A stretch of DNA of 64,000 bases from Psammoneis japonica (Eukaryota). The notes under the pieces were generated by a model that was given only the letters and a program-made list of their open reading frames with translations, was not told where the DNA came from and did not search any database. The translations under genes were made by a program, and so were the position numbers. How positions within the stretch are numbered: position 1 is the first letter of the stretch; every line of letters begins with the position of its first letter. Shown here piece by piece: positions 42,301-63,010 of this stretch. The stretch spans positions 2,517 through 66,516 of the forward strand of contig QPGO01000075.1 in assembly GCA_008632985.1 (NCBI GenBank), written 5' to 3'.

Positions 42301-45300
42301 GGCGACATCCGCGACAATGTGTACCGATGAATAGCTACTTGGGCTGTCCTTTATTTCATCGACAAAATGGTCCAAGACAACTCTGAGTGCCGGTAGAAGC
42401 TCACCAAGGATCAGGTCACGCTTCCAGCAGAACAACACGTCGCCTTTAGAACTAACATTGAGCCTTCCGATATGAAATAGTGTCTGTTTGAGTAGGACGT
42501 GTACACAGTGGTGCTCAAGTGGAAGCGATCGGTCAAGAAGCGCCACAAGCACACTCCGCAGCTGCCTGTGTGGATAGCTCCTCATATTGCAGAAAGCTAG
42601 AAACTGCGTTTTTGATAGCCACGAAGGCCGCGTCTCCTGGCAGGCAAGAGCTCGATTTCCTCGTACAGGAGCATCATCCGCATTCTCCTCAAGCCGCATG
42701 GTCCACTGCAGAGACTTCCCATCTATTCCAAGCTTTTCGGTGAAGTATGAAATGACCCATTTCCGAGGAATTCGAAAAGGATCGAATGCTCCGCCATTCA
42801 TGGCACGATCGCACAAGAGGCTTCCACCAGTCCATTCCATACCAAATGTGACTGCGTCGGGAAACCACACGCCATTCTCCCTCGAAGACATGTTGTCAAC
42901 AGATGTCGGTCCAATTGTTTTTGGAATTACGTCAGCTAAACCTCTTGTTGAAACCAAAGCAACATCCCCTTGCGAACCCTGCCTCTTTTCTCGTGGAGAG
43001 TGAAAACAATAGTATTGGTTGCTGTTGTAGAAGTCCTTCAAGCACTCCCTGTTTGTAATCTGCAAGGCAGCAAAAACATCAACAACCTTTGTTCCGTCCG
43101 GCCCATCGCATTCGGCAACCCAAGGTCGTGGAACAAGCATTTGCTGAGCAGAAAAGCTAAGAGTTGATAGATCTCTGAGAATCGGCGGCATGTGAAGAAA
43201 GAATAGCCATACACGGGCCTTGGCCTCTTCTCTTGGCAGCGGCTGGCATACTGGCGGAGGAGCCTTGAGTGCGGCTTTTAGACTATTCTTGCGTGATGAA
43301 ACCTTCTGTTCGAGCGATCGTACTCTTGATTCACATCGGTCCAGTTCTGATCGTGAGGCGTATTTACTACCAGATCGCGCATAGTCGTACCTTTCTTGCG
43401 CATCGTTTCGGTCGACTTTAGCAGTGTCAAGCTGCCTAGTTAGGCTGGAAATTTCCGATCTGAGCCTGCGTGCTTCACGCTGCTTCCTCAACACTTCCTC
43501 CCAGTGCTTGTCCATTCGTTGATTTGCATCGTCCATTTCTGCCTTCAATAAATGCTGCAATTTGGTGTCGTTCTTTGCCCAAGCTCTAGCAAACTGATTG
43601 GTTGCATCTGGCGCACGCAATGAGAACAACTCAGTATTCTCTGAGTGGTGGTTCTCGTTGAGAAATGACGCGACTTCCGCAAGCGCCCTCCAACAAGTAC
43701 GGTCGTCAAGGACAAGATGTTCCAAGTCGCTAAATCGAAGCGCGACGCTGTATGTACCTATCCCCATCCCAGCAATCTCGCGCTTCAACGTGGAAAAAAC
43801 AAGACAGTATGCAATCCATACTACTAGCAGCTCTCGACTCCGTAATACAGAAATCATGAGGCCGGACGTATCCAAACGTTGAAAAAGGCTGCGGTACTCG
43901 TGCACCACATCAAGCAAGTTTGAGACTTCCAATTCACTTAGACAAGCGGCATCGAAACCATCGAGGGCTCTGTTCCAGAAAGTATTTTCTACCGCTCCAA
44001 GGCGGAGAAGTATCGTGTCCGAGTTATCCTTGCCTTTGAAGGGCGAAGATTTCAGGTATGCAAGAAGCTCTTTCAAGTCAAACTTGGAATTATGCGTAAA
44101 GACATGGTGTGGACCAATATTGTTTTTGATTCTGCTCTCAAAGCTACGTTCCTTGAGTGCTGGTCCAGGTGCTTCCTCTGGTAAATCAATCCTCGGTGAT
44201 CGGAAGGAGTTGGGGTTCCTCAAGAGGCTATCGACGTCCGGCAACAGAAAGCGATCTGCCTCGGCTCGCGCAAGTCGTTCAACGACTTTGTCGATGCGAT
44301 TCCTCAGATCGTTTGATGCATGAAAGACAGAATGAATGGTTGAGGCACCGATCTCATGTTCGTCTGCCTCCATGGAAACTACTTCAAGTATCCGAAATGC
44401 GACGTCAAGATCGGCCCTTACTTTCCAAGCCTTTTCGCCTGTGGCCTCGATACTATCCTCCTCTGCTCGCGTGACTCTATCGTCGAGGATGCGGAGATGG
44501 ACAGAGAGCATAAGCTTGATGAACAAGACCTTGTTGGTACAACCACATTGAGTGAGACACCAATCCAAAATGAACTTGGCTAGTGCATAACTCGTGTTGC
44601 GAGGCTCACCCCCCGTGTGGCGACCAACATCCGTGAATCCACCTTTGGGAGTAACATCATGGCAACCACACCTTGTTCCCATTGCACAGGGACAACGGAT
44701 TGCTTGAGTTGCAAGTGCGTGAACAAGAGTTGGTGTAAACTGGTGCCCCTGACGCCCACCTGCCGCAGTCCGGCGGTCTCCGTCACGTTCCTTTGCGGTA
44801 TCCAGCAACTGCTGAAACCGCTTCCAGAAGGCTTCCATCTTGTCTTCCTCGAGCGTTCCAGCAATGAGCATCTTGTAGTCCTCGGCGTTTGCTTCGTGTC
44901 GATATCCGTCTGAATCGTCATGATGTAAGAAGAACGAATGTCGGTCGAGGCCAATGATCGAAATGGTCCTGGTGAAAGGCATCTGGTGCTCTCCACGATG
45001 AGCAAAAAGTGCACTGCCATATTGGGGTAGCCAACGAACGTCAGGTCCATTGCCCTTCATCATGGAGATTGCTTTGTCAACAGCACGCATCTCATCGGCG
45101 GAGAAACCGGTAGTAGGCGGTTCCTTGTCCGAGACTCCTTGTTCGGGCGTTTCGTCGCCATCTCCGTTAGGCTAGGAAGGGCCATATTAAGCCAGGAATG
45201 TTAGCACAGTCGAATGACAAGCTTCCAAATAGAACTAAGTTGAACTTACCGCTAGGCCTTCGATGCACATAAGAAGCAACTTCACAAACTGCTTACACGA

Positions 45301-45718: not shown

Positions 45719-46980
45719 GTGTGGCTGAAAGATTCATGATCTGCATTAACTCATCCTCTATAAAACAGCAAAAAGATCCGACTGCCAATGGTCATGCATG
45801 CACATGGTTAAAAAGCCCGAATACCTCAAATGTGACGTGCAACATTGTGAGAACGAAACCCACCGAAGCGCTTGTAGCCGCGTTTCGATGAATGATACGA
45901 TTTTTGATGCATTAGGGCTACAAAGACTTGTATTCCAGCCAGTACAAAGATTGACTCCGCATCACAAACGAGAAGATACTCTGAACTTGCAGTAGCATGC
46001 AACAGCGCGAGCATCCTCTAAATGACAAGCGCCTCATACACAGTATAGCACCGCACTCAGCTTGCTTTAAGCGGCCTCTGCCATATCATAAGACTGCTTT
46101 TACGCTACATATGGATCATCCTGTAGCAACTACATGGGAAACAGTGTTAAAATAATCCGTACATCCATTTGAATCGCAGCGCGGCGACGTCATGGCCGCA
46201 TCGTCGCGTGCATGGATGGTGGAAAATCTGTCTATCAATTGTATTCATTGTTGAATAAACGTATATGCTCCAGAAATTCTTCACTTCAAAAACGGCGGCG
46301 TCTGCAGCCATGATCCATGATGTTCAGCTTCAGAGGTGGTCGGCGTTAGTAGTACAAAAAATCGCTGCACATCGCACCGATCACACCTTAAGCCATTTCG
46401 ATCAGACATCGTGAGAATAAGAAAAGATTTTTTCAACTCGACGCTGAAGGGAAAAAGACGATCTACATATAATATGACGATGAACCCTCATTCATCTTTT
46501 TGGTCGAGCATGATTGGCTTTTTCTCGTTCCTTTTTCAATTGGATTACGTGGAGGAAACTCAAGAGTTGTCAGAACCAACCCGTGATTGTGTTGCTGAAG
46601 AAAAAAATTCGGTCGCCACGGTGCCACGACAAAACCATGAATCATCGACCGAAAGTCATGCTGCCGCAGAAGAATCATTGATGCGTTCCAGGTCTAGGTG
46701 GGACCTCGCACTGCTGAACTGTGACATCGACAGTTTTTTGAATCACGTGTATGTCGCGAACGTAGATTTCTACGTGATTTTTTCGACATTTTGTGTCATT
46801 TTACGGTGCACTTGTTGAGCGATCCGTCCAACAACTTTTTACATTTTTTGTCACAGCGCGATTCTACAATGTCTTGTGAATCGCGCAGGGCGGGCACATT
46901 TGCAGAAACGTCGAGTGGCAAGAGGCACAATTGCACCACAAACTTGGCAGTTTATTTGATGTTGAAGACAAACACATCCA

Positions 46981-48558
46981 TTGGTTGAATTCTCGTGCTG
47001 CGGAGCTCGCACGCAGAATTCTGCGGGCCCAATGTCACACGGAGTCCCACCTGGGACTGGAACCCGTCCATTTCAGTTGTCGTCACAGGGGCAAGAATCA
47101 TCTGCTGACAATGCGAAAGAAAATTGTTCTCTGGAGACTTCTGACTTGTTGCACGCCGCTGACGATTCGTTAAGATCAGGGGCAGCGTCACAAAACATTG
47201 AAAACAAAAGCACTGATGATGACGAGAAAGTCTCACGCAGCAGCCGAGAATGCGATCAAGAAGCATCGGGGAGCCGAGAGCAAGCACAAGCGCGACTCTT
47301 GTCGGATCATAATCCATTGACTGAGCTCAACAAGCACGTCACAAAGCCCCGACTCAACTCAAGACAGCATGCGTTAAATTTTACGAGCCAAAGTTGCTGT
47401 TCACAGGGTGGGCGACACAATGGTGGAGGAGCGCGTTCTCACTGCCCCAAAAGGCCATCCACCACCTTTCAACAACGAAGGGTGATGCAGAAGTCGAGTT
47501 TTCATTTCGTGAGAGAGGAGCGGTCGGATGCCAGTTGTGGATGGTCTGTCAACAAGATTCATGTGGGTTCTTTTACGAATCGCGTTAGTGACAAGGATCA
47601 CACCGCAGCAAGAGTGGCCCAGGGCGGAAGCAAAGGCAAAGCATCTGCTTTGGCTTTGACCAAAGATGCGAGCAGGTCTGAGAAACGACACCATCAGCTT
47701 TTTGCCAAGGACGAGAAGGAGCCTTTTGAGAATCCCAAGATGTCCACTGGTGGAAAGCGGAGTGCGCCCGCGTCATCAAGAAACCCTTCAGCAAGTGCCG
47801 CGTCCCGTTCGACCAAAGACACTGGCAGGTCCGAGAAACAACACCGTCAGCTTTTTGCCAAGGATGAGAAGGAGCCTTTTGAGAATCCCAAGATGTCTGC
47901 CAGTAAAAAGCGGAGTGCGAGCGCGTCATCAAGAAACCCTTCAGCGAGCGCCGCATCCCGTTCGACCAAAGATGCTGGCAGGTCCGAGAAACGACACCGT
48001 CAGGTTTTTGCCAAGGATGAGAAGGAGCCTTTTGAGAATCCCAAGATGTCTGCCAGCAGAAAGTGGAGTGCACCCGCGTCATCAAGAAACCCTCCAGCGA
48101 GTGCCGCATCCCGGTCAACCAAAGATACGAGCAGGTCCGAGAAACGACACCGTCAGCTTTTTGCTGAGGACGAGAAAGCACCCGAGATGACCAATGGAAA
48201 GCGGGGTGCTCCCGCGTCATCAAGAAACCCTCCAACGATGAGCGCCAGAAGAAACCATCCACCAATCGACGTTTTGGACAGCAGTGATGACGATCGCCTC
48301 CAACCAAAGCACAAAAGAAGACCTTTTGCCGATGCTGAAGATGAGGCCATTTTAGCTGGCGTCAAAGAATGCGGTGAGGGGAACTGGAAAGCCATGAGAG
48401 TGTGTGGCCATGCCGTCTTGCACTCGCGCAGCACGGTCAACATCAAGGATCGCCATCGTGTTCTGAAGAAATGCGGGAAAACTGAGGGAATGGAAAACTT
48501 CCCGGATGAATGTGCAGATGCAATTGCTGATGAGACGCATCATGGCAGCAGTGAGTGA
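46981..48558 (+). pseudogene. Element-borne ORF with 51-aa repeats and a C-terminal telobox/TRF-type Myb domain, TpA-mutated
   Basis: RRPFADAEDEAILAGVKECGEGNWKAM...SRSTVNIKDRHRVL matches a TRF Myb pattern (FT..ED..L..GV..YG.G.W..I...R....KDRYR) after T->A, Y->C, I->M and Y->H changes. Start uncertain. Confidence 0.7.
47659..48230 (+). repeat. 153-bp coding tandem repeat, ~3.5 copies
   Basis: ACCAAAGA.. units start at 47659, 47812, 47965 and 48118. Confidence 0.95.
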
Positions 48559-48966
48559 ATCAATTGATGATCCGATTGCGATCTTGGTGTGGTGGGTCCA
48601 AGAACTGAAGATTCAACACAACTCTTGCGTCGTCATTTTAGTTTCTCAGCAGGACCATGGACTAAAATAATTTCATCCTTCCTCATCTTGTGAACAGTTG
48701 CACTGGTGGCGACATTCTCATGTTGCAGCCATGCCGTTGCTTGTCGTGTGCGACATGGGCGGCGACACCATTTTCACGTTTCTCATGGTGTGGTTGGGGG
48801 ATTGAGAGCTCCTCATCATTGCAATGAAGCCGCCAAATTCAGAAACCAAACAGACGCACCGGCATTGTCCACAGTTCTTAGCTGCGACAGGCTCTGCGGC
48901 ACAACAGCAGAGGGCATGGCAGCCCTCTGCTCTTCTCTGCTCTCCAGCTCTATCTGCTCCACTCTT

Positions 48967-48969
<3 letters not shown>

Positions 48970-48999
<30 letters not shown>
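48970..48999. repeat. (CT)n microsatellite
   Basis: Uninterrupted TC run of about 14 units. Confidence 0.9.
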
Positions 49000-49001
<2 letters not shown>

Positions 49002-49039
49002 TCTAGAGAGGAAGCAACGGTGTATGTGCTCATTTCTAT

Positions 49040-49471
49040 TGCCCCATGCATGCGCCAGGTGCTGAAAAAGAAGATGTGTTACGACTTTGTCGTTGTGAAA
49101 ATTATGAGCTAGTTTAGAGTAGAGAAAATGGGATCGTGCGAATAGGGAATCTTGCCAAATCCCTATTCGTTCGCATTTGGATCGTATTAAATCGATCGTG
49201 CGTTCGCATTGTGGATCGTGCGAATCAAGCCATCACGCGCCATGCACGAGTGATGTCATCGTGTGGAATCACGCTGCCATCGTGGGCCAGACGACGGGCT
49301 AGTGTGCTTCACACGGATGCTCTCTTAGCATCCTTCTGGAATTGCCTAAGACCTAGAGCCACGCCCTCCTGTGGTCGTGCTTCCCAGGTGCGTGTTAACA
49401 ACACCACGTTGCCACGCACAAGAGGCTCATGCACGGTCTCACCGTGTTGTCCAGCAGCGAGGCATGCTGCA
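49040..49471 (-). repeat. 3' LTR
   Basis: Colinear ungapped match to 53907-54338; adjacent to the PPT. Confidence 0.92.
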
Positions 49472-52400
49472 CACTCCCCCATGATCAGGGCCGTCAAGTG
49501 ACAGAATGTCTTGCTGGTGATGGGGCACAATCTGCTGCAGATCACACGTGTCCATCAGCACTCCGTTCTGGACACGCAACGTGCCGTTGTCACACACACG
49601 GACAACTCTGGCGGGTCCTGCATGGCTGTCAGAACCGCACTCAGAGGATTGTTCCTGTTTGACAAGCACCAACTGCCCTGCGGTGTGTTGATGCTCCTTG
49701 CGTTTCTGATTTTCACGCTTGTTGTTTAAGTGGGCAAGCTTCTGCTTTCTGGTTTCCATGCACTTCCACTTGGCACGATGGGCAACAGACAAAACCGCAT
49801 CGCGTCCGAAGACCAATTGCACGGGACTTGCACGCGTGGTCGTGTGCACCGCAGCTCCAATGGCGAAGGCTGCTGCGGAGAGGATGCCACTCCATGGGTC
49901 ATCTTCGTCCAGTTCCATGTCCTGTGCTGAAAAGGAACGTGCCATGTTGCCAAGTGTCTGGTGCACACGTTCCACTGTGGCATTTGCCTGTGGATTCCGT
50001 TTGCTCATGGGTTTCTTCAAAATCCCACAGTCATTTTTAATCATCTGGCCAAATTCTGCCACAAATTTTGTCCCACGGTCACAAACCACCTGGGTTGGCC
50101 ACGGACATCTGCACAGCCACGTTTGTTCCACGATGTTTGCTGCGACGTCTGCGCGTTTCGTAGACACTTCTTTGATCTCGAACCACCTGGTTGCTGGGTC
50201 AATCATTGTGACTGCCCACAATTGCAAGGTGTCCTTTCCGCGTCTTTGAATTTTGTGTGGCCCCATCGTGCCCATGCATGGAGTTTCCCATGGAATTGTC
50301 TCTGTGACCTTTTCTGGTGGCTTCCCATGACGCTGCGTTTGGCGTTTTGTCTTCTGGCATCGATCGCACTTAACGCACGTAGAATGCACCGTAGACCTCA
50401 TGCCAGGCCAACAGAAGTGCTGGGCAACAGACATTTCCGCATGTGTCTCACCTGGATGACACAGTGTCTCGTGGTGCCATTCAGTTAGCGGAACCTGCAA
50501 TGACTGTGGTGCTGTGATTTTGTCCTTATGACAGATTGACTGTCGTGATGACCCTCCCCCACGACACGCGTGAATGGAGCAGTCGGACGAGTCCTTGGCT
50601 CTTGAGAGCAGGCGCTTGTCCTTTTGTTGTGCTTTTTGAATGCGCTTGAAGCTAATGGGCAGAGACAGCTCATCTTGAGCGTCTGCATTAAAGGCTTCAT
50701 GCAAAGGACGACTCGATGGAGTGTCTTTTACATCCGGATTGGCCTCGGAAGGCAAGCTGGGTGCTGGTCGAAGGCGACTAAGAGCGTCAGCGACTGGGTT
50801 GTGGGTGCCCTTAACACAGCGTAATTCGGGACCGCATTCTTCGCATGTCAACTGCCAGCGCATGACGCGCTCGGCATTGAACACTTTGTGCGCAAGATTT
50901 TTATGATCGGCACATGTGATCACACGATGACCAAGGAGAATCGTTCGAAATTCTTTCAACGTCTCCACAATGGCGAGCAATTCTCTCTCCGTTGTTGCAT
51001 GATTTAATTGCGCACTGTCAAGCTTTCTGCTGTAAAAGGCGACAGGTTTATCATCTTGGGACACAACTGCTCCCAATTGACATTTAGAGGCATCGGCGTG
51101 CATCTCAAAGGGTTTGTTGAAATCAGGATGTGACAGTGAAACATCATCCGACATCACCCGTTTGACGGTTTCGAACGCCTCGTCTTCAACGGACGTCCAT
51201 TCCCACTTGACAGTCTCGCTTGCGAGTCGTGTTAGCAGAGCCAAGACTTCAGAACGTCCAATCCACGTGTCGCGGCAGCAGTTCACCATGCCAACAAATG
51301 AACGCAGGTCGCGTTTGTTGGTTGGGGTCGCGATTCGCTCAATGGCGTCGACTTTGTTGGGTGTTGGTCGTGCTCCGTCTCTGTCAACCAGACAACCCAA
51401 GTGTTCTAATTGGGTTTGACAGAAGTGAGATTTAGTTGTGTTGACTTTTAGTCCTGCTTTCTGGACCCTCAACAAAACTTCTTCAAGTTTGTTGAGGTGA
51501 TCTTCACAGGTGCCTTTCGTCACGACGAGAAGGTCATCTAAGTGCGTTCGAACGAACGACAGATCTTCAAATGAGCCTGACATGCGTTCTTGGAAAATGT
51601 CTGGCGAACCACACAATCCCATGGGCAATGCCTGCATCTCACACTTGCCCCACGGGAAGATGAGCGTGCAGAGCTTCTTGCCATCAGCATCCAATCAGAT
51701 GTGACAACAGCCCATGTTTAAATCCAGCGATGTAGCCCACATAAAGCCTTCGAGCTCAAGTGGCACATCTTGGACATGAGGAATCGGGTGAGGCAATCGC
51801 TCAATCCGTTTGTTCAGCTCTCTGAAATCATTGATGAAGCGCACCGTTAAATCTTTCTTCGGCATGACAAATGATGGAGCTGCCCATTGGGATCGGCTGA
51901 CGCGTTTGAGAACACCGATGCGCACTGGGCGCTCTACTTCCTCACGCAGCGTAGCTTCGTGTGCACGAGGTGCTTTACACGGACGAGCGTGGTGTGGTTC
52001 TGCACCCTCCTTGAGTTGGACATGGCAGGGTTCTCCCTTCCATTCTCCCAATGTCCCATCAAATGAGGACTCATGGCGTTTCAACAGTGCCAAAAGGTCG
52101 TTTTGTTGAACCACAGAAAGTCCCATTGCCCCTCGCGTCATGTCCTCGAGGCAGGCCGGCGCGCACTTGGCGTCTGAAATGCGCGAAATCCGGTCGGTTT
52201 CCGAAGATGAGGCTTCTGGATCTTGAAGATAGAAGGAGGTTTCCACCGCAGCATCTGCGTGCCTCATTGGCACTTCTCCATTGACCAATGGCCACTCTGT
52301 CATCTGTTTAGAGAAGACAACGTCAATGCCTTGTGTCTCCAGAATGTCACGTCCAACAATCATGTCGCACTTGCCCAACTTTCCGTTGTGTGCGTGGACG

Positions 52401-52720
52401 GCATGCTTGGGTTCTGCAGTTTCGGATAATTCTGGCAACCGAAATTTAACGGTGCAGTCGTCAGACGTGCCAAACGAGCCTGCTGCCGTGGTCCAGTTTG
52501 TCTCAGCCATTGAATGGCTTCGCAGACGTTCACAGCATCGACTGTCGAGCAGAGCACTGCCAGCGCCACCATCTGGTGGTGCCTCAATGGTTTGAGTCTT
52601 GCCCTTGCCATGTTTGGCATTCACAGCCACAAACAAGATTGGAGTGAGATGAGTCTTTTTAACTCGTTTGCGGGATTGGCCTACAACACGTGTACGATGG
52701 CAATTCAGTTGTTCATTCAC
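49439..52720 (-). pseudogene. pol: pol (protease, reverse transcriptase, RNase H, integrase) with an in-frame TGA at 51695-51697
   Basis: SQWAAPSF, RFINDFRELN, LPMGL, HLDD (for YLDD), DAS..LGAV, ERELLA, VADALSR, DRG..F and VERVH. The two ORFs are in the same frame, separated by one TGA (probably from CGA). Confidence 0.93.
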
Positions 52721-52768
52721 ACATTCATCTGATGTGTTAAAACTGCCTGTGTTGTGTCGGCCCCCTTC

Positions 52769-53812
52769 TCAGGCGTCCGAATCTTCGGAATCACTTAAGT
52801 TGAGGTCACGGAAGTGATTGAGCTCCTCCTCGCGGGCCTTGCGCTTTTTCTGAGCGTTGGCAAAACACTCCTCGACCTTCGATCCGATGAGAGCATCAAT
52901 GTCTTCCTCATTCCGAGGTTTTGCATTGGGCTTGCCGCCTCCGTCATTGGAATGTCCAGTCTTGACACGTTTCACGTGGTGCTCAAGCTGACGGCAATCT
53001 TCCGCATCATGTCCACAGTCAGTCCCGTGTGGCATGCACGACTTCTGGGTGTTCCGCTGGGTCGTGATCAACGACTCAGGATTGTCCATTCTACGTCCCT
53101 GCTTACGTGGAACCTCAGCATGTTGGTCCTGGTTACCTTCGGCAAGCTCGACCTGCTCGATGCGCTCGCAGAACTGTACAAATTCGGCGATGGCATGCGC
53201 CAACGGGTCAAAATTCTGTAGCGTCATGAACTTCTGCCATGCGTTCGGCACACCGCACTCGAACATGTCGCACAGTTCGTCATCAGGTGATGGTGCCGGT
53301 GTTTCTCCATCCTCCATCACGGGTGGAAACTGAGAGATGCAGCCGTTAATTTCAACAGCCCTCGCGACGCAGTCACGAGTAGAAACCTCTGCGGGCTTGC
53401 GCATGAAGCGCCGCAGATGACGCTTCTGCAGCAGCACCGCCCCATTTGGGAAGATGCTTTCCTTTAGCTTCGCGACGCATGCTGCGCACGCAGCGTTGGT
53501 TTGGGACGCCTGCTTGTCAGCGGCATCATCAAATGACGTCAGAGCATCGCCCTGTAGTGAGTCACGCATGAGGGCAAATTTCGCTGGCCCGGTCGTGATG
53601 TTTTGTCCTTCGTGCACGCGATCCACGTTGCGTGGAAAGATTGGGAGTGTCTCGCATGTAGCCGCAGAAAGGTGCGGGATGCCCATCTCTTGCGTTGGAC
53701 TGTCCGGATCAGTGGGGTTGTTACACAGCTTGTATGTCTGGTGCTCGCCCTGCTGCAGCTCTTTCTTCTCTGGCCATGCGAACAGAATCGGCGGCTCAAT
53801 CCGCTTCTTCAT
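52769..53812 (-). pseudogene. gag: gag-like ORF
   Basis: ORF between the 5' LTR and pol, with QKRHLRRFMRKP and a CxxHG..GH....C knuckle-like motif. Confidence 0.75.
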
Positions 53813-53906
53813 GGTCGTTTTGAGATTTGTCGGTCCCACCAACATTTCGTAGTTTCGTTTCTGTAGATTTCATTGCCTTGCACAACATGCGGGAGTGATG
53901 TCACTG

Positions 53907-54338
53907 TGCCCCATGCATGTGCCAGGCGCTGAAAAAGAAGATGTGTTGCGACTTTGTCGTTGTGAAAATTGTGAGCTGGTTTAGAGTAGAGAAAATGGGA
54001 TCGTGCGAATGGGGAATCTTGCCAAATCCCTGTTCGTTCGCATTTGGATCGCATTAAATCGATCGTGCGTTCGCATTGTGGATCGTGCGAATCAAGCCAT
54101 CACGCGCCATGCACGAGTGATGTCATCGTGTGGAATCACGCCACCATCGTGGGCCAGACGATGGGCTAGTGTGCTTCACACGGATGCTCTCTTGGCATCC
54201 TTCTGGAATTGCCTGAGACCTGGAGCCATGCCCTCCTGTGGTCGTGCTTCCCAGGTGCGTGTTAACAACTCTGCGTTGCCACGCACAAGAGGCTCATGCA
54301 CGGTCTCGCCGTGTTGTCCAGTGGCGAGGCATGCTGCA
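53907..54338 (-). repeat. 5' LTR
   Basis: Match to 49040-49471. Confidence 0.92.
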
Positions 54339-54619
54339 CTGTTCTCTGATTGAAATGCCAGCACACAACATTCGTGCCGGGCCAACACATCCAAAAAAAT
54401 CCACCCTCGGTTCTACCCTGTAGAGAGCAGCACTCATCCTGTGGGGAAGAAGACCAACCCGTGGCCATCAGTGGAGAAGCTACGTGCTAGCAATCAACCT
54501 GCGCAAACCCCACACGAGGAGTTGAACCCGAAAAAAAACTCCAAGACGAAGCGAGCGACGCTCAAAAAACACCGCGCCGTCACCTTGACCATGGCCTTTG
54601 AATGCCCGTAGTTCTGCTC

Positions 54620-55350
54620 GGCACCCATTGCAGCAAAGGTGTGAATGCCAACATTGACTGATGAGACTGTGAAAAAAATGATGCTTGCTTTGGATTTTTT
54701 GCTTGCCCTTGCCTTTTGGGTGTTTGATGACTTTTGCTGCAAGAGAGGAAACACGCGGCGCCACCGCGTCGGTGACAGCAGCGTTGACATTTCTGCTCGG
54801 TGATTTGAGGACAAAGGTGAGAATGCCAATGCTTGCCAAACTTAGCTGTAAAAATCGCATGGTTGTGTTTGCACTCATTGCAAAGCCCGCATTTTGGGCG
54901 TTTGATGCTTTTTTCTGAGGCACAGCTTTTCTCTCACTTTTTCCATTGTTTTGTGGTCGCTCACAGGTCTGCCCGGCACCCATTGCAGCAACGGCATGAA
55001 CACCGCTACGGATTAACATGACTGTGGAAAAAAATGATGCTTGCAGTGGATTTGTTGCTGCTCCTCACCTCTTGGGTGTTTCGCGACTTTTGCTCCCAGA
55101 GAGGACACTGACAGGACTGCCGCGTCTGACACAGTGGCATTCACAATCAAGCTCAGCTTCGGACTGCAAAGGTGAGAACAACAAAATTTGCTAACAATGA
55201 TGTCGAACATGTGATGGAAATGTTTGTTTGTTGCACACATCTCATGTTTTGTGCGTTTGATGATTGTCAAGTGTGGCGCAGTTTTTTCCTCACAGTTTCT
55301 CCTGTCTCGCCGTCGCTGACAGGCCCACTCGGCACCCATTGCAGCATGGG
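54620..55350. repeat. Diverged ~355-bp tandem repeat (2 units plus the start of a third)
   Basis: GGCACCCATTGCAGCA at 54620, 54975 and 55331; ACTGTG(G)AAAAAAATGATGCTTGC near 54666 and 55021. Confidence 0.8.
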
Positions 55351-56310
55351 CGCCAAGGTGAATACGGACCAAATAGTTATAAAAAAATGCACCTCAAGCC
55401 AAGGATGCGGAACAATCTGTTTAAAGATCAACGGCAGCAACCCTTGGTCGTGCCTTCCGCGCTGGGGAGCAGCTTGTTTTCTTCTCAAGCTGGTGGAAGT
55501 GCAATGAGGTGCTGATTGTTCCTTGGGCTAATGCAATTGTTTAGTAACATTTAAATATAAAATTCACAACAGTGATCTCAAACAGGTGCTTTGGAGCTTG
55601 TCAAAGTTGAAAGCAGTGCAAGTCGTTCGTCTGCTTTCCCACAGGGAGTGTGAAGGTTTCTGCTGCACTCAGGACGCCTGTGAGTGCTGCTTGCCATGCC
55701 ACCATAGATGCAGTTGGCATTGGTGCAGTTGCCGGGGTTGCATGCGGCAACGCTCATGGTTGAGATGCCGCATTGAGACGAGTAGAACTTTCGAGTATTT
55801 TTTTTGTTCCTCCCGTCGCACTCGACATCACGCACCAAGGACAGACTGTTTAGATCGCGCGAAAGGGGCGCGCAGGGTAGAATTTTTGGCTCCGAAAATT
55901 CTACTGTGCCTTCTACCTGAGTGGAATAAACAGTGGATGTACGGTAGATCTTTTTAGAAGATACTAACACCGTATTGTCATTTTTACATACGAGAATTCC
56001 ACTTTCCAGTAGAAAAATACTCCTTGGGTAGAATTTTGGGTGTAACGGTACGGTACTCTACACTATCTACTATCCGCGAGTCGTACCCGCGACCAAAGCA
56101 AATCTTCGAAGTTCACGCAGTTCAACAATGAAAAACGTGTACGGTAAATCAGGGAGCGGGTGTTCGATGATGTTCGATTGCGAAGATGCAGAGATAGAAC
56201 AACCGCGGACGTTGCTTTTCCCATTAGACCTTTGATAAAGCTTCTCTTGGAGCGAATCCAAGAGCTAACCTTTAGCAGTAGCAGAGCTGTTCGGAGTTGG
56301 AAAAGTAACG

Positions 56311-57426: not shown

Positions 57427-59488
57427 CGAAAGAATAGAGAAGTAGACGCGTTTATGGGATGTCAGCTAGAGGGCATTATAGTGGACTTATTCTTATTGCT
57501 TTATCTGTCTTTAGCTCCCATGTAGGGTCCATCTCAGCATGTCTCTAGAGAGCCGCAAGAGAGCAGGAAAATTAGAAGAATCAGTGGGATGTCAACATGA
57601 CTCAGACACAATTGAGCATGACCAACATTGTTTTGATGAACCGAGGCAAGGTTCAACATTTAGACAAAGCATTGTCTCCCTCTCCCACACAATCATTTAA
57701 TTTTTTTGACATGATGCTGAAGATCCAGTGCATCACCCATGATGTCTCAAACCCTCACAAACTGTTTTGCACCTCTTTGCATCTGATGCAAAAGTCCTGC
57801 AACTTGATCATTGCCGCACGATGGCAGGAAAGCACAATCATTTGATTCCCACAGCTGCAAAAGATGCACAGGTTCAATGGATGCTGTGATGATGCATGTG
57901 ATTGTTTGTGGTGCTGGGATTGCTGGTTTTTTAATTGCCCAATTTGCACCACTGCCCAGACCTTTGGTGTGGAGTCATGGTGCTGGAACAATGCAACAAC
58001 AACAAGACCAGCATGGAGAAAGGTTTGCAAGGCACAGACAGCCCACCACAATCCAAAGTCAACCACAGCTCTTTTTGGGGTGCTGGTCCATGGTGGGTCA
58101 GCTTCTTGATTGGCAATGACCACATGCACATTGAAATGGCTTGGAAAACATGGCAAAACACAGATGCAGTGTTGTCCAGCACAAAGATTTGGTGTGGGTG
58201 TGGTCAGAGAAGTCTGCATTTTGGGGTGGCTTCCTTTTGGTTTTGGGTTGGAACTTTGTGCTGGTGTTTGTCAAACATTTTCTGCATTGGCACCACATTG
58301 TGGGCAAGGGCTCCATCAAGGAATTGCAGTTCTTGCAGCGGGTGGGGTGCACAGTTGAGAAAAATGGGGGTGCCGCAAGTTGGACTTCCAAAACAAGGTC
58401 ATTGGGAATGGCTGCACAGGAATTTTTGCTGGCAAGAATGAGAGTGCTGCCTTGCACACAGACACACAATTCTGGGGCACTTGCTTCTTGCGGATCAAAA
58501 GAGTCTCCAATTCGGGTGCTGATCTAAAGTGACTGCTGTTGAAAAAATGAAAATGGCATGTCGCGCATGTCTGTGTGCTGCAAGATGGCATGAGAGGGAG
58601 TGCTTGCTGCAGGGCCAAAATGTTTGGCTCTAGCCAGCAAAACAGTCCAGAGCTCAGCAGCAGCTGAGCCTGCTGCAATCCAGGCCACCAGATGTGAGCC
58701 AAGAATGAGTGCTTTGCCTGCCCTGCATGTTGGCTGCTGGAAGCACCACAAAGCACAAAGATGGTTAAATCTGCCACTGCACCACTTGGCCTTGTTGGGG
58801 CACCAGCCAACTTTCATGTGGGTTTCCTGCCAATCATGAGCCAAACACACACCAAAGAACAATGAGAACCTTGCCCAGCTGTCTGCTTGGGCATTTGGGC
58901 AAGAGATTGCACAGGAGAAGAAATGAGAAGGAACTTAAAATTTCTTTTGTGGTCAGGGCACAGTGGTGCACATTTTTCAAACCTGGCCAACTTGCAATTT
59001 TGCCACAGACTGGCGATGGCCTGCATCCAACAGCTGGGCTTTCCACCAGTTCTTGATGAGGTGAAGTGCCATGATGAGCCAATCAGAGCCCACTCCTGCA
59101 ATTTGCAACACTCTGCTCATGAGGCAGCATTGCCCCCGGTCCATCCTGCCATCAAATGGCATGACAAAAAAAAACAGAGCTGTTTTTAAGTGCCATCACT
59201 CCTTTGCCAGCTGGGCTGGTGCCGGCTGACCCACACTCCCAGTGCACAGTTAAGTGTGGCAGAAGCTTGCGCTGGATCAGCCGGGGTGGGCATCACCAGA
59301 AGATGACACCCCACCAAGATGACTGAAAAGGAATGATTCACACGAGGGATTTGTTGCACGCTTGTTGATGACAGCCACAAAAGGCACACCACAACTGCAA
59401 CGGACAATTGCACTCAGATGGGTTTTTAAAACAGTCCACAAAAGGAGCCTTGAAGGTGAGACGAGCAGGTCATTAGAGAAAATGTTCT

Positions 59489-59960
59489 TGACACGTAGAA
59501 ACAACACTGAGTCTTGCGTGGAAAAGCCGATGAGAGCAGCAAACCAAAGACCATCAAATGGCATCACAGGACAACTTGCATTCTTGCTGAAAAGGGCTGC
59601 AAAAGAAGCAGCACATTCACCACAAAGAGCGAAGCACTTGATTGCACGGTGGAGAAAAGAAGAGAGGTTGAAGACCGATTGGCAAGGACAAAAGCAGTCC
59701 AGAGAAGTGACACACAGACAGTCAGAGGTGACACGTAGAAACAACACCAGATCTTGCATGGAAAGACCAACGGGAGTGGCAAATTAACAACAATCAAATG
59801 ACTCCAAAGGACAACCAATGTTCTTGCTGAAAAGGGCCGCAACAGAAGTGGTGCTTGCACCATAAAGAGTGAAGGACTTGATTGCATGGCAAGGAAAAGA
59901 AGCAGCATTGAGGACCAATTCGCAAGGACAAAAGCAGGCCAGAGAAGTGACATGCAGCAG
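59489..59960. repeat. 240-bp tandem duplication
   Basis: TGACACGTAGAAACAACAC at 59489 and 59729, with shared TTCTTGCTGAAAAGGGC and GCAAGGACAAAAGCAG blocks. Confidence 0.85.
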
Positions 59961-60411
59961 ATCGTCCGGCATCTGCAGATCCGCGTAGAATTTGCACTAG
60001 AACCTGTGTAGAAAATTTTCTGAGACAACAGAAAATTTCAAGAAATGACAACCAGCACACGAACCAAAAGGCCGGGACACTCGTCGTTTTTCCACTGATG
60101 AACTTTGCTCATCATGCTGCAACAAGGATGTGCCATTGGTGAACATGGACAGAATGGGCTTGTTGGAGCCAAATCAACACCATCTGAGAAGGGTGACATC
60201 AGTGCAAGAAGGTGCATGGAAACCTGCGCAGAAGCTGAGGGTGTGCAGCTGATGTCGAAAAGTGTCAAATGGCATGACAGAGCATGATCACTTCCCCAGC
60301 AGAGAAAGTGCTGCCTTGGGCCCAATTGCTCAAGCAGCCAAAGACATGGCACAAGAACCTGGGGAGGGCACCTTGGCATTGGATCAGCAATCTGCCAGTC
60401 TGTTTGGCATC

Positions 60412-60709
60412 ACTTGTTGCAAGAGGTCAGCACTCCTCTCAGACATTTGTGGGAGAAAATGAGCTCCAAGTGGACGTGGAAGCTGCAGATTGCTTTGCGA
60501 GAGCAGCTTCATTTCTTGCTGTCAAGGAAGTTGGCATTGTCCAAGAGCAGGTGTCCCCAGCATTTCCAAGATGTCCCAAAGTTGTTCAACAAGCACGCCA
60601 AAGTGCACAGCAGCAGAGATGCTGGCTTGTTCCTGACAAGAGAACAGAGAAGCAGATGTGCTCTCATCCTCTGTCTCGGGGCATGTCTGGAGAGCCATGA
60701 GAGAGCAGG
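60412..60709 (+). pseudogene. Decayed duplicate of the lipase 3' end and 3' flank (57206-57567)
   Basis: Colinear similarity: TTGCAAGAGGT, GAGCTCC..GTGGA, CTTTGCGAGAG, TTTCCAAGATGTCCC and GTTCCTGAC; peptide FVGENELQVDVEA vs FMGENELRVDVEA. Confidence 0.88.
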
Positions 60710-62026
60710 GTTGTCACTCTGTTTCTGGCAGAGAGTCGCCAAGTGAGATGAGTCAGAAAGACCAACCTGAGCTGTTGTGAATGTCAGCCAAGAATCCCAA
60801 GAGCTGTGGATGGCTGCTGAGATGTGAGAAGGTGTTCTCTGTGTGAAGCACATGTCTTCAAGAGAACCTCTGGCACAACATGGAATTTAAAGTGCATGCA
60901 CAAACTCTGAATTGCACCAACATGTCTTGAAAAGCTCAAGGGCACAAGCCACCTCCTGCAGTGCCATGAGGAACAGGTTGTTTGACATGATTTTTTGTTC
61001 TTGGAGGAGGGCATTTGCTGATTCTGCCAACACATTTGCAACAATGGAGATGGCAGCAAAAGACACACTTGGACATTGTAGAGGAGTGCTCCCAAAGCAA
61101 GAAACAGCACAGGGGACCCTGCATGAGATCCAAAAGCCACCTGCCACTGGCTTAAAAAAAAAACAGTGGATGCACAACATCACAAAAGGACCACAAGATC
61201 AAGCAACAAGCCCTGTGAAAGTGATGCCAGCTCAGGCAGGCATGCTCCCCCCCACCTCATTCATGACAACATCTTGCTGCCAGCAGGAGGAGGGAACTGC
61301 ACACCCATCTTTGATGGCAGCGCTGGACAGAAGCTGTCCAAGCAATGGCTTTGTCCATGTCAGCTGCACACCTCCTGCCTGGAATGCACATGCTGCAAAG
61401 TTCCAAGGCTGATTTGGTGATTTCCTTTGTTGCACAGCATTTCAGAGAGATGCAAAGCTTTTGTGCTGTGTCAGCCATGACTTGGGGTGGTGCAAAACCT
61501 CCCTCTCCATGAGCCAAGAAGAGAAGAAATCTGCCCCACTGAAAGATGCCCCAACAACAACACAAACAGCAAAGTCTGTTGCTTCCATGCTTGATTTGCT
61601 GCAGAGCTGCAGAGCTGCAAAAAAGTCAATCTCTTGTTGGAGAGAGCAACTTTTGGTTTTCTCATTGCAGCCAGCAAGTCCAAAACCCACACAACATTGG
61701 AGATTGCACTGCATTGCTGCAGACACATCCCAGCAGTCAGCACCTTTTGACAAGGGCAAGAGCAGCATGATCTTGTTTTGAAACAAGTTCAATGAGCACA
61801 GAATGAGCTGATCCATCATGATTGTCTGCCGCAATGCGGTGCACTGTGGTCAGGGAAAAAGATTGCTGAGGATCATGGCAACAAGACATTCTTGCACAAA
61901 CAATTGAGGTGTGGCCTTGTCTCCACAGCTTGCCCAAGCACAACAGCCCAAAGTCAGAAGTGCAGCAAGCCCCCCTTGACCTGATGTGTTGTCAACAAAG
62001 AAAGAGCATTGTTGAGCTGGGAGGGA

Positions 62027-63010
62027 TGTCAAGGCTCCTGCCACAACAGCCACAACCAAGTGTGGAATGCATCTTAATGCCTGCTTTTAAAGAAGCTTGC
62101 AGGTCCAGGGTGTGCACAATTCAGAGGAGCAGCACACATTGTGAAAGCTGTGCTTGCCTCTCTAAATTCTGTCAGAAGCTGGACATTGTGGGGTGGCAGG
62201 TCAGCACATGCACAGACAACTCTTCTTCACTGCACACTCTTGCAACTCTGCTGGCAGCAGCATGGCATTCAAAGGGATGAGGTCAAGATGAGAATTTTGG
62301 CAACTGACATCTCTGGGACTGGCCCATTGTGAACAAGCCATTGCCAGCTGGAAATGTCACAGGGCCCACCAGCACCCTGTTGGCAAGGAGCAAAAAAGGA
62401 GCATGAGATGTTTTTCAAAGCAACTGCTGCATGTCTTTTGCAGAGCAGTGCTGTTTCAACAAGTTGCTTTTAGAGCAAAGAGCATTGCTGACCACCCTCT
62501 GGCTCAGAATTCTTGCTTGTTGTGCATGAGAGCTGTCAAGGCTGCCACAGCAGTCACAACCAAGTGTGGAGTGCATTTTGATGCCAGCTTTTAAAGCAGC
62601 AGTTTGCAAGCCCAGGATGCACACAATTCAGAATGGCGCACTTTGTGAGAGCTGTGCTTGCCTTTCTGGGTTCTGCCAGAAAAGTCAGGCATGGGTCAGT
62701 GGGGTGTCAACACATGTGCACACTTGTCTTGCAGCTCCACTGATGACATTCAAAGGGATGATGTCAAGATGAGAATTTTGGCAAATGACATTTCTGAGAC
62801 TGGCGGCCCTTTGTGGATGAGCCATTGCCAGCTGGAAATGTCACATGGCCCACCGCAGCACCCTGTTTGCAAAGAGCAAGAAAGGGTCATGAGATGTTTT
62901 TTCAAGGCAACCACTGAACATCTTTTGTGGAGCAACGTTGTTGTTCAACAAGTTGTTCTCAGAACAAAGAGTGTTGCTGACCACCCTCTGGCTCAGAATT
63001 TTTTTCATTT
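62027..63010. repeat. ~500-bp diverged tandem duplication
   Basis: CACAACCAAGTGTGGA at 62051 and 62555; GTCAAGATGAGAATTTTGGCAA and GCTGACCACCCTCTGGCTCAGAATT each present twice. Confidence 0.88.

What the first reader, a model, noticed from the sequence alone, without database searches (positions are those of the whole stretch)
49036..54343. LTR pair and target-site duplication record post-insertion TA editing
Seen, by manual alignment of the two 432-bp LTRs: about 21 differing bases. Nine are TA (left LTR) vs TG/CA (right LTR), three are CA-vs-TG doublets, five are CG vs TG/CA, and one is a transversion. The flanks are CTAT (49036-49039) and CTGT (54339-54342). Established: LTRs and TSDs are identical at integration. 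Inference: nearly all divergence arose in place at YpR dinucleotides, reached flanking bases, and was unequal between the LTRs. LTR-divergence dating in this genome would therefore be inflated.
Basis: partly seen in the sequence, partly recalled or inferred. Interest (0 to 1): 0.88.

Follow-up and report, generated by a model that had tools for sequence, protein, structure and literature searches.

The report
TpA hypermutation scars on diatom retrotransposon
A dead jumping gene in a diatom genome has been rewritten almost only at the two-letter step TA (turned into TG or CA), the mark of a targeted DNA-mutating process so far reported in only one other alga, and it makes standard age estimates for such elements misleading.

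Summary
The two 432-bp LTRs (49040-49471, 53907-54338) align without gaps and differ at 21 bases: 9 TA(left) vs TG/CA(right), 3 CA/TG doublets, 5 CpG-type, 1 transversion. All 20 transitions lie in pyrimidine-purine steps (p about 8e-6). The flanks are CTAT/CTGT.

The element is a degenerate Ty3/gypsy-type retrotransposon on the minus strand of a diatom genome. The direction TA to TG/CA is shown independently. 29 of 29 conserved Tyr codons of its pol are now Cys or His. 75 of 81 derived A:T>G:C changes sit at TpA. A host gene in the window shows none of this.

The window is a mosaic of host-gene blocks (TpA observed/expected 0.4-0.8) and TE or unannotated blocks (0.00-0.22). These include an RT-less integrase element and a single-copy stretch. 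Surviving TpA follow a 3'-neighbour rule (TAY lost, TTAA kept).

The closest known case is the TpA-only hypermutation of integrated viruses in Bigelowiella natans (2026 preprint). I found no diatom report.

Still open: the nine LTR sites could not be polarised with other family copies, and a TA-rich island spanning the left LTR and its flank is unexplained. LTR dating is inflated: non-YpR divergence is 0 of 192 positions, against K2P 0.051.

The parts
49036..49039 (.). Left copy of the putative 4-bp target-site duplication (CTAT)
   Evidence: It matches the right copy at 3 of 4 bases, and the mismatch is TA vs TG.
49040..49471 (-). LTR (the 3' LTR of the minus-strand element), 432 bp, TG..CA ends. 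It keeps 14 TpA (obs/exp 0.57).
49472..49482 (-). Purine-rich tract (GGGGGAGTG on the minus strand) directly upstream of the 3' LTR: candidate polypurine tract
   Evidence: Read; position only, not tested.
49439..51694 (-). pol, C-terminal part: end of RT, RNase H, integrase (H2C2 + rve)
   Evidence: Pfam, (RT_RNaseH_2 3e-28, RT_RNaseH 6e-25, Integrase_H2C2 3e-10, RVT_1 1e-9, rve 6e-4). Best database relatives are 58% identical.
51695..51697 (-). In-frame TGA inside RT, at a position where 10 homologs have Arg
   Evidence: GYYHIR/K in the homologs, GCCHI* here.
51698..52768 (-). pol, N-terminal part (protease region and start of RT). No Pfam hit in this copy.
   Evidence: It aligns to homologs that carry aspartic-protease Pfam families.
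52769..53869 (-). gag-like ORF ending in TGA (52769-52771), in the same frame as pol
   Evidence: No Pfam hit. 2 Tyr in 367 residues.
53880..53906 (-). Region where a primer-binding site is expected, next to the 5' LTR. No canonical TGG start seen.
   Evidence: Read; not tested.
53907..54338 (-). LTR (the 5' LTR of the element), 432 bp. Only 5 TpA (obs/exp 0.22).
54339..54342 (.). Right copy of the putative target-site duplication (CTGT)
48951..49396 (.). TA-rich island (18 TpA in about 450 bp, including GTAT twice and CTAT three times). It spans 90 bp of left flank plus most of the left LTR, between depleted neighbours.
   Evidence: The 500-bp bin 49001-49500 holds 10 susceptible-context TpA against 0-1 in the adjacent bins.

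Best explanation
The feature is one degenerate copy of a high-copy Ty3/gypsy-type LTR retrotransposon in a diatom nuclear genome. After integration its DNA was changed almost only by two context-specific transition processes that act on TE or silent blocks of this genome.

(1) TpA>TpG/CpA, that is A>G on one strand or the other. It is strongest when the A is followed by a pyrimidine (TAY), weaker at TAG and weakest at TAA.

(2) CpG>TpG/CpA, the usual signature of 5-methylcytosine deamination.

The nine TA-vs-TG/CA differences are most likely TpA lost from the right LTR. The three CA/TG doublets are most likely TpA lost from both LTRs on opposite strands. The five CpG differences are CpG decay in one LTR or the other. 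The CTAT/CTGT flanks are the same TpA loss just outside the right LTR.

Shown here: the direction, the dinucleotide and 3'-neighbour context, the sharp regional restriction, and that it does not depend on reverse transcription or on copy number.

Inferred: the chemistry (adenine deamination to hypoxanthine in DNA, as proposed for Bigelowiella natans), the enzyme, and targeting by chromatin state. On that last point, the left LTR and 90 bp of its flank would be a spared, perhaps open, island.
For: LTR pair: 20 of 20 transitions lie at YpR steps, with 0 differences at the 192 non-YpR positions.

Direction. In a MAFFT alignment of the element's pol with 10 homologs, 580 columns are conserved in at least 8 of 10. 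Of these, 29 of 29 conserved Tyr columns are Cys (17, TGY) or His (12, CAY). Tyr makes up 0.2% of the element's pol against 3.3-4.2% in the homologs. Among derived single-transition changes, A>G numbers 52 (46 preceded by T), T>C 29 (29 followed by A), G>A 9 (7 after C) and C>T 1 (before G).

Control. The host CPSF100 ORF has 6 conserved Tyr columns: 4 kept as TAT, 1 Ser, 1 Phe, none Cys or His. Fisher p=6e-7.

Second element. ORF 21603-25736 shows 4 of 4 conserved Tyr>Cys and 7 of 8 A>G after T. Four intact homologs scanned against Pfam carry an integrase and no RT.

Landscape. The 1-kb TpA obs/exp map is bimodal: 0.41-0.78 in host-gene blocks and 0.00-0.22 in blocks 1-8k, 14-18k, 21-28k, 47-49k and 58-64k. 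CA/TG rises to 1.5-2.05 there. CpG is depleted in only some of these blocks.

Context rule. TpA survival in depleted blocks relative to host blocks depends on the 3' neighbours on the two strands: AA 0.63, AG 0.53, AY 0.18, GG 0.14, GY 0.11, YY 0.034. Chi-square p=1e-25.

Doublets. CA/TG doublets recur in four other repeat pairs of depleted blocks.

Independent reads. A 965-nt contig of run X1 covers the TA-depleted single-copy flank 48027-48956 with 2 differences.

Precedent. Mutation-accumulation lines of B. natans show A>G/T>C only at TpA, about 1000-fold above background, in integrated viral regions (bioRxiv 10.64898/2026.01.13.699255; abstract, Results and Discussion read).
Against: The ancestral state at the nine LTR sites and at the target-site duplication was not observed. 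No other family copy could be read: the table shows 40 of 696 rows and none of the 21 sites, and searches found no same-family DNA.

The left LTR (TpA obs/exp 0.57) is the outlier. The right LTR and the interior are both at 0.22. One could therefore read the left end as having gained TpA.

At 49188 both LTRs have TTAA where about 65% of the depth of other copies has CA, so TpA gain or retention is not uniform.

The left flank block was already saturated, so it is unclear why its last 90 bp are TA-rich.

The host-block baseline for the context rule is coding DNA, which is not an ideal stand-in for ancestral TE composition.

No enzyme, DNA modification or chromatin data are available, and no whole genome is held.
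Confidence: 0.8

Rival explanations
1. Reverse direction at the left end. A RIP-like or other cytosine-deamination burst (CpA>TpA, seen as TpG>TpA on the other strand) hit about 450 bp spanning the left LTR and its flank. On this reading the nine TA are new and the right LTR is the unchanged copy.
For: The left LTR is the compositional outlier (TpA obs/exp 0.57 against 0.22 for the right LTR and the interior). Eight of the nine changes are on one strand, as in deaminase clusters. The TA-rich island also covers flank DNA. At 49188 this copy has TA where most other copies have CA.
Against: Every polarised change in this genome runs the other way: 29 of 29 Tyr lost, and 75 of 81 A:T>G:C changes at TpA against 10 G:C>A:T, of which 8 are at CpG. 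TE blocks are TpA-poor, not TpA-rich. New TpA in GTAT or CTAT contexts would be the first to be removed. The island's TpA density (about 40 per kb) equals that of undepleted host DNA (39 per kb), as expected for sparing. The doublets are left unexplained.
Confidence: 0.12
2. Ectopic gene conversion or recombination among the many family copies. On this reading one LTR was overwritten from another copy, importing YpR polymorphisms that already existed in the family, rather than mutating in place.
For: The family gives depth figures 200-600 times that of the single-copy flank, although the tool warns this is no copy number. It varies at 613 transition places and 77 transversion places. That makes donors plentiful.
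Against: The TA-rich island runs 90 bp into non-LTR flank, which a homologous donor could not convert. The chance of at least 4 susceptible TpA there is 4e-5. There is no non-YpR difference between the LTRs, although family copies also differ by transversions. The near-matching 4-bp flanks argue weakly for a single insertion.
Confidence: 0.08
3. Editing before integration: RNA (ADAR-like) or cDNA intermediates of reverse transcription were edited, so the copy was born mutated and with unequal LTRs.
For: It would explain heavy damage to a young-looking copy. The 4-nt gaps at integration are briefly single-stranded.
Against: Both A>G (46) and T>C (29) occur on the sense strand. The same decay is seen in an integrase element whose intact homologs have no RT and in a single-copy non-TE stretch. 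Eight of nine right-LTR changes are T>C on the element's sense strand. That is not what editing of plus-strand strong-stop DNA, the step specific to the 5' LTR, would give (my reasoning from the standard reverse-transcription scheme).
Confidence: 0.05
4. Assembly or base-calling artefact at modified bases, or a compositional bias from GC-biased gene conversion or selection against TA.
For: Modified bases can cause systematic transition miscalls in long-read assemblies (recalled, not tested).
Against: A contig of an independent run matches 930 bases of TA-depleted single-copy flank with 2 differences. Run X1 holds 58% of the sampled 31-mers of 48300-55000. Biased gene conversion does not predict TpA-only change with a 3'-neighbour rule, nor simultaneous CpG loss. 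Selection cannot explain the loss of catalytic Tyr (YIDD to HLDD).
Confidence: 0.03

Closest known systems
TpA-specific hypermutation of integrated NCLDV and virophage DNA in Bigelowiella natans (Mettrop et al., bioRxiv 10.64898/2026.01.13.699255; abstract, Results and Discussion read)
   Same: Change is almost exclusively A>G/T>C at TpA, giving TpG/CpA. It is confined to blocks of foreign or selfish DNA with normal host DNA alongside. The long-term trace is TpA depletion with CpA+TpG enrichment in clusters enriched for RT and DDE domains and unannotated ORFs. It acts on single-copy DNA.
   Different: The host is a diatom (Stramenopiles), not a chlorarachniophyte. The main target here is a high-copy LTR retrotransposon plus an integrase element and unannotated blocks. 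Depletion is far deeper (obs/exp 0.00-0.2, against 0.45 for the B. natans NCLDV region). CpG decay accompanies it in some blocks. There are no mutation-accumulation data here, so ongoing activity is not shown.
Repeat-induced point mutation (RIP) of fungi
   Same: It is a transition-only, dinucleotide-specific, regionally confined degradation of selfish DNA that ruins coding capacity.
   Different: The chemistry and outcome are opposite. RIP is C>T mainly at CpA and enriches TpA. Here TpA is destroyed: window TpA/ApT = 0.34/0.90 and (CpA+TpG)/(ApC+GpT) about 1.5. RIP needs duplication, whereas here a single-copy stretch is affected.
CpG decay of methylated transposons (5-methylcytosine deamination)
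   Same: It explains the five CG-vs-TG/CA LTR differences and 8 of 10 derived G:C>A:T changes in pol. It also explains CpG obs/exp of 0.05-0.2 in blocks 14-16k and 58-64k.
   Different: It cannot produce TA>TG/CA. Several TpA-depleted blocks keep CpG near 1.0 (26-28k, 47-48k), so the two processes are separable.
ADAR or APOBEC editing of retroelements in animals
   Same: Host-driven, context-biased transition clusters that inactivate retroelements. ADAR favours a 5' U (as stated in the preprint's Discussion).
   Different: Those act on RNA or on cDNA and mark one strand. Here both strands are marked, and an RT-less element and flanking chromosomal DNA are affected.

Membership tests
Ty3/gypsy-type LTR retrotransposon | Direct long terminal repeats with TG...CA ends | tested here: met
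   432-bp LTRs, 95.1% identical, TG..CA ends.
Ty3/gypsy-type LTR retrotransposon | pol domain order RT - RNase H - integrase (integrase last) | tested here: met
   Pfam on the minus-strand ORF gives RVT_1 at residues 18-101, RNase H at 166-284, H2C2 at 396-451 and rve at 487-568. The protease is not detected in this copy but is present in homologs.
Ty3/gypsy-type LTR retrotransposon | Short target-site duplication flanking the LTRs | tested here: inconclusive
   CTAT / CTGT match at 3 of 4 bases, which has about a 5% chance on its own.
Ty3/gypsy-type LTR retrotransposon | Primer-binding site after the 5' LTR and polypurine tract before the 3' LTR | tested here: inconclusive
   GGGGGAGTG abuts the 3' LTR. 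No canonical TGG-type primer-binding site is seen next to the 5' LTR (read). No tRNA match was attempted.
TpA-targeted hypermutation (B. natans type) | Mutations are A>G/T>C and fall on TpA | tested here: met
   75 of 81 polarised A:T>G:C changes are at TpA. 29 of 29 Tyr codons became TGY or CAY. 4 of 4 did so in a second element.
TpA-targeted hypermutation (B. natans type) | Confined to blocks of foreign or selfish DNA, with host genes spared | tested here: met
   The 1-kb map is bimodal. The host CPSF100 gene keeps its Tyr codons. Most depleted blocks have no annotation, so calling them foreign is an inference for those.
TpA-targeted hypermutation (B. natans type) | [quoted passage not shown] | tested here: met
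   In depleted blocks TpA is 0.00-0.22 and CA/TG is 1.5-2.05.
TpA-targeted hypermutation (B. natans type) | De novo occurrence at about 1000-fold the background rate, episodic among lines | not testable with these tools
   Needs mutation-accumulation lines or strain resequencing. The only indirect evidence is that the LTR pair has 0 non-YpR differences against at least 9 TpA losses.
Fungal RIP | C>T at CpA in duplicated DNA, giving TpA enrichment and CpA/TpG depletion | tested here: not met
   TpA is depleted and CpA/TpG enriched. The polarised changes run the other way. The host is a diatom.
ADAR-type RNA hyperediting fixed by retrotransposition | A>G on the transcribed (sense) strand only, and only in retro-copied sequence | tested here: not met
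   Sense-strand A>G 46 and T>C 29. An RT-less integrase element and a single-copy flank are also affected.
CpG methylation decay | CG>TG/CA with CpG depletion | tested here: met
   Five LTR differences. 8 of 10 derived G:C>A:T changes are at CpG. CpG is 0.05-0.2 in two blocks. Methylation itself is not testable here.

The most novel reading that the evidence does not exclude
Diatoms and chlorarachniophytes may share a chromatin-directed DNA-editing defence that works as an 'anti-RIP'. It would convert A to G at 5'-TAY-3' on either strand of silenced selfish DNA, whatever its copy number, until Tyr codons and TAA/TAG stops are erased. Locally open DNA, such as the left LTR and its flank, would be spared. 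If the system is inherited across the SAR supergroup, the enzyme could be found by comparing genomes with and without TpA-erased blocks.
Probability: 0.35. Interest if true: 0.88.

Novelty: new member of a known kind. Interest (0 to 1): 0.72.

Why it matters
A targeted A:T>G:C hypermutation at TpA has so far been reported, as far as my six literature searches show (the 2009 diatom retrotransposon paper checked), only in one chlorarachniophyte preprint of 2026. Seeing the same signature in a diatom has several consequences.

- **Distribution.** It is deeper here and sits on retrotransposons. That suggests the process is widespread in a major group of marine primary producers, which makes the search for its enzyme a comparative-genomics problem.
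- **LTR dating.** LTR-divergence dating in such genomes overestimates age. Here K2P is 0.051 with zero change at non-YpR positions.
- **Homology searches.** Degraded TEs escape them: Tyr becomes Cys or His, there are no Pfam hits, and one search found nothing.
- **Gene prediction.** Loss of TAA/TAG creates long false ORFs on both strands. There are 41 ORFs of at least 150 aa in 27.5 kb of depleted DNA, against 18 in 28 kb of host DNA. These can mislead gene prediction.
- **New handles.** The 3'-neighbour rule and the spared island are new handles on the mechanism and on how it is targeted.

Tried and rejected
1. **Whole genome.** None is held, so the requested test on all LTR pairs could not be run.

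2. **Other family copies via reads.** Read laying laid 6399 contigs of X1, but it prints only 40 of 696 variant rows. None of them is at the 21 LTR sites, and the cap is one call.

3. **Same-family DNA elsewhere.** A degenerate 60-nt LTR pattern found only the two LTRs in the window and nothing in metagenome contigs. The search for related loci with pol gave two short contigs at 47-52% identity (L001, L002), which are useless as an outgroup.

4. **Near-identical proteins.** The best pol hits are 58% identical. All 120 have normal Tyr content (2.9-4.7%), so no decayed relatives were seen there.

5. **Word-based homology search on ORF 21603-25736.** It found nothing. The exhaustive HMMER search did.

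6. **Pfam on 22 ORFs of the depleted blocks.** Only the integrase hits, plus noise.

7. **Earlier scan notes.** Nothing on this genome and nothing related. The TpA hits are phage cases that do not bear on this finding.

8. **Context test on the LTR sites.** The nine sites lost in the right LTR sit in more susceptible contexts than the five shared TA, but the difference is not significant (one-sided Mann-Whitney p=0.089).

9. **Doublets by CpG decay.** I considered independent CpG decay in both LTRs as the source of the doublets. That predicts about 0.09 doublets against 3 seen (p about 1e-4, with my rate estimates). It is rejected in favour of TpA decay in both LTRs.

10. **Depth as copy number.** The depth figures are not used as copy numbers, following the tool's warning.

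Full report
**What is there.** The interval 49040-54338 is an LTR retrotransposon on the minus strand.
- Two 432-bp direct repeats (49040-49471 and 53907-54338) begin TG and end CA, and they are the only long direct repeat pair around.
- Between them lie three consecutive minus-strand reading frames. The first is a gag-like ORF (52769-53869). The second covers the protease region and the start of RT (51698-52768). The third carries the end of RT, RNase H, an H2C2 zinc finger and an integrase core (49439-51694; Pfam).
- With the integrase last, this is the Ty3/gypsy arrangement.
- A purine run abuts the 3' LTR. I saw no canonical primer-binding site.
- The nearest database relatives of pol are only 58% identical and come from environmental assemblies.
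- The host is a diatom. The CPSF100 gene at 10.8-13.8 kb finds only diatom proteins by name (Nitzschia, Seminavis, Mayamaea, Thalassiosira and others), at 55% identity or less.

**The observation.** It is correct to the base.
- There are 21 differences and no gaps.
- Eight sites are TA (left) vs TG (right), and one is TA vs CA.
- Three are CA/TG doublets.
- Five are CpG-type: CG in the left LTR three times, in the right LTR twice.
- One is a transversion.
- The flanks are CTAT and CTGT.
- All 20 transitions lie in a pyrimidine-purine step, while 55.6% of LTR positions do (p=8e-6; 5e-5 if the doublets count as single events).
- There is no difference at all at the 192 positions outside YpR steps.
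- TpA counts are 14 in the left LTR and 5 in the right. All 5 are shared, so the asymmetry is 9:0 (p=0.004).

**Direction.** I could not do it at the LTR sites either.
- No genome is held.
- The read-laying table is cut to 40 of 696 rows and shows none of the 21 sites.
- No same-family DNA exists in the collections I could scan.

The coding region does give a clean polarisation.
- I aligned the element's pol with ten homologs. 580 columns are conserved in at least 8 of 10.
- All 29 conserved tyrosines are replaced: 17 by Cys (TGY) and 12 by His (CAY). This includes the RT motifs, where GYYHI reads GCCHI and YIDD reads HLDD.
- Tyr makes up 0.2% of this pol, against 3.3-4.2% in the homologs.
- Among derived changes explained by a single transition, 52 are A>G (46 preceded by T) and 29 are T>C (all 29 followed by A). 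Only 10 are G:C>A:T, and 8 of those are at CpG. In addition, 15 are transversions and 26 need more than one step.
- The host CPSF100 gene is the control. Of 6 conserved Tyr columns, 4 are still TAT and none is Cys or His (Fisher p=6e-7).

So in this element TA became TG or CA, on both strands, and almost nothing else happened.

**It is a property of blocks of this genome, not of this element.** The 1-kb map of TpA observed/expected is bimodal, with sharp edges.
- It reads 0.41-0.78 over the recognisable host genes. These are CPSF100; a methyltransferase and a nitroreductase at 18-21 kb; the large genes at 28-47 kb; and a hydrolase at 56-57 kb (Pfam).
- It reads 0.00-0.22 over 1-8 kb, 14-18 kb, 21-28 kb, 47-49 kb and 58-64 kb, where CA/TG rises to 1.5-2.05.
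- The element itself sits at 0.16-0.33.
- CpG is also nearly erased in 14-16 kb and 58-64 kb, but it stays near 1.0 in 26-28 kb and 47-48 kb. Two separable processes are therefore at work.

Most depleted blocks have no recognisable domains. One does.
- ORF 21603-25736 carries an H2C2 zinc finger plus an rve integrase.
- Four intact relatives scanned against Pfam (1149-1408 aa) have an integrase and, in two of them, a RING finger, but no reverse transcriptase.
- It shows 4 of 4 conserved Tyr>Cys and 7 of 8 A>G after T.

The stretch 47.5-48.9 kb is TpA-depleted (0.12-0.13). Yet its depth figure in run X1 is that of single-copy DNA, and a 965-nt contig of that run reproduces it with 2 differences. 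The process therefore needs neither reverse transcription nor repetition, and it is not an assembly artefact there.

**A context rule.** Depleted blocks keep 6.7 TpA per kb, against 39.2 in host blocks. The survivors are not random.
- Relative to host blocks, survival falls with the 3' neighbour of the A on each strand. AA (TTAA) 0.63, AG 0.53, AY 0.18, GG 0.14, GY 0.11, YY (RTAY) 0.034 (chi-square p=1e-25).
- This is roughly multiplicative, as expected if each strand is hit independently with a preference TAY >> TAG > TAA.
- It explains why every Tyr codon (TAY) is gone.
- It also partly explains why eight of the nine right-LTR changes are on one strand. In three of the nine sites (four counting the TTAG site) the other strand offers only the resistant TAA context.
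- I found no such analysis in the main text of the B. natans preprint.

**The doublets.**
- CA in one LTR against TG in the other needs two transitions.
- Independent CpG decay in both LTRs predicts about 0.09 such sites. Three are seen (with my rate estimates).
- They are what is expected if an ancestral TA decayed in both LTRs, on opposite strands.
- The same doublets recur in other repeat pairs inside depleted blocks. There are five each in 47655-48176, 62262-63000 and 59489-59952, and two in the inverted repeat at 27.7-28.5 kb.
- Counting them, plus an equal number of invisible same-direction double decays, the tally becomes about 15 losses in the right LTR and 6 in the left. That is a milder asymmetry (one-sided p=0.04).

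**The unequal LTRs.**
- The right LTR and the interior are equally depleted (0.22 each), and the left LTR is not (0.57).
- The TA-rich state does not stop at the LTR edge. From 48951 to 49396 there are 18 TpA, including the most susceptible contexts (GTAT twice, CTAT three times).
- Four of them lie in the 90 bp of flank next to a (CT)n tract.
- The neighbouring 500-bp bins hold 0-1 susceptible TpA. The chance of four or more in that flank is 4e-5.
- A conversion from another copy could not reach into the flank.
- I therefore read this as a spared island, perhaps open chromatin at the insertion site. This is inference, and the island remains unexplained.
- The alternative is that about 450 bp gained TA by cytosine deamination at CpA. 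It fits the strand bias, but it runs against every polarised change in the window. I give it 0.12.

**Other family copies.**
- In run X1 the element collects depth figures 200-600 times those of the flank. The tool warns that this is no copy number.
- It varies at 613 transition places and 77 transversion places.
- Of the 40 rows shown, 26 are places where this copy has TG or CA and a share of other copies has TA. Six are places where this copy has CA/TG and the others have CG. Only two are the reverse TA case.
- So this copy is more decayed than many of its relatives, and it has private CpG losses.
- At 49188 both LTRs have TTAA where most other copies have CA, which is a result against a uniform direction.

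**Mechanism.**
- Shown: the direction; the TpA context and the 3'-neighbour rule; the action on both strands; the block-wise targeting that spares host genes; and the independence from reverse transcription and from copy number.
- Inferred: the chemistry is deamination of adenine to hypoxanthine in DNA, which is read as G. The agent would be a polynucleotide deaminase directed to silent chromatin, as the authors of the B. natans study propose with an ADAT2-like candidate.
- A thymine-modification route at R-T-A with mis-repair to C would give the same pattern, and I cannot exclude it.

**Comparison with what is known.**
- The closest case is the 2026 preprint on Bigelowiella natans. In mutation-accumulation lines, 230 of 231 mutations in two integrated viral regions were A>G or T>C. 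All of these GC-biased mutations fell on TpA, at about 6e-7 per site per generation. The process was episodic among lines. TpA-depleted, CpA+TpG-enriched clusters were enriched for RT and DDE domains.
- The signature here is the same, so this is a new member of that kind, in a different supergroup lineage. It adds deeper erosion, LTR retrotransposons as targets, a 3'-neighbour rule and accompanying CpG decay.
- It is not RIP: that has the opposite chemistry and outcome, and a defining feature was tested and not met.
- It is not ADAR- or APOBEC-type editing of retroelement intermediates, because both strands are marked and an RT-less element and flank DNA are affected.
- Six literature searches and a look into the 2009 diatom retrotransposon paper found no diatom report.

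**Consequences.**
- TAA/TAG stops fall from 9.1/8.1 to 3.2/1.6 per kb. ORFs of at least 150 aa are 41 in 27.5 kb of depleted DNA, against 18 in 28 kb of host DNA, many of them overlapping on both strands.
- Such ghost ORFs, together with Tyr-free proteins, are a practical flag for this process.

**Limits.**
- This is one window, with no genome and no chromatin or modification data.
- The LTR sites and the target-site duplication are not polarised directly.
- The baseline for the context rule is host coding DNA.
- Read evidence comes from assembled contigs of one sample, which may be the source of the assembly.

Noticed in passing
window 1-8500, 14000-18000, 21000-28200, 47000-49000, 57500-64000: Blocks with TpA obs/exp 0.00-0.22 and CA/TG 1.5-2.05, with sharp edges against host-gene blocks. 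The stretch 17001-18000 has no TpA at all. CpG is also nearly erased in 14-16 kb and 58-64 kb (0.05-0.22) but not in 26-28 kb or 47-48 kb.
   Followed up: yes
window 21603-25736 (+): A 1378-aa open frame with an H2C2 + rve integrase near its N-terminus. Four intact relatives scanned against Pfam (1149-1408 aa) carry an integrase and, in two of them, a RING finger, but no reverse transcriptase. It is possibly a Ginger-like DNA transposon (the name is recalled, not tested). 4 of 4 conserved Tyr are now Cys.
   Followed up: partly
window 48951-49396: A TA-rich island (18 TpA, many in the most susceptible contexts) spanning a (CT)n tract, 90 bp of flank and most of the left LTR, between fully depleted neighbours. 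The cause is unknown.
   Followed up: partly
window 54610-55600: A tandem repeat of about 356 bp, 61-78% alike between units. Its depth figure in run X1 is about 20 times that of the single-copy flank. Contigs of run X3 join across 150-151-nt GT..AG intervals here, as spliced transcripts would, so X3 may be RNA and the repeat may be an expressed multi-copy gene.
   Followed up: no
window 46966-48555 (+): A 530-aa open frame without a single Tyr. It contains 153-bp tandem repeats (47655-48231) and a weak Myb-like hit (E=0.005). It is single-copy by read depth yet TpA-depleted. It is either a decayed gene or a ghost ORF.
   Followed up: partly
window 27685-28031 and 28093-28527: Inverted repeat arms 94-96% identical at the edge of a depleted block. 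Their differences are again almost all at YpR steps, including two CA/TG doublets.
   Followed up: partly
window 36399-45171 (-): A very large DUF3638/DUF3645 gene read as three consecutive open frames (758 + 334 + 1828 aa), with normal TpA and Tyr content. It is probably one host gene with short introns or frame breaks.
   Followed up: no
window 53137-53846: One X3 contig joins 53137 to 53846, skipping 708 nt of gag. It carries TA at 13 places where this copy has TG/CA, so it represents a deleted and less decayed family member.
   Followed up: no
depleted blocks generally: Loss of TAA/TAG leaves many long overlapping open frames on both strands: 41 ORFs of at least 150 aa in 27.5 kb, against 18 in 28 kb of host DNA. 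These are likely to be mis-called as genes.
   Followed up: yes
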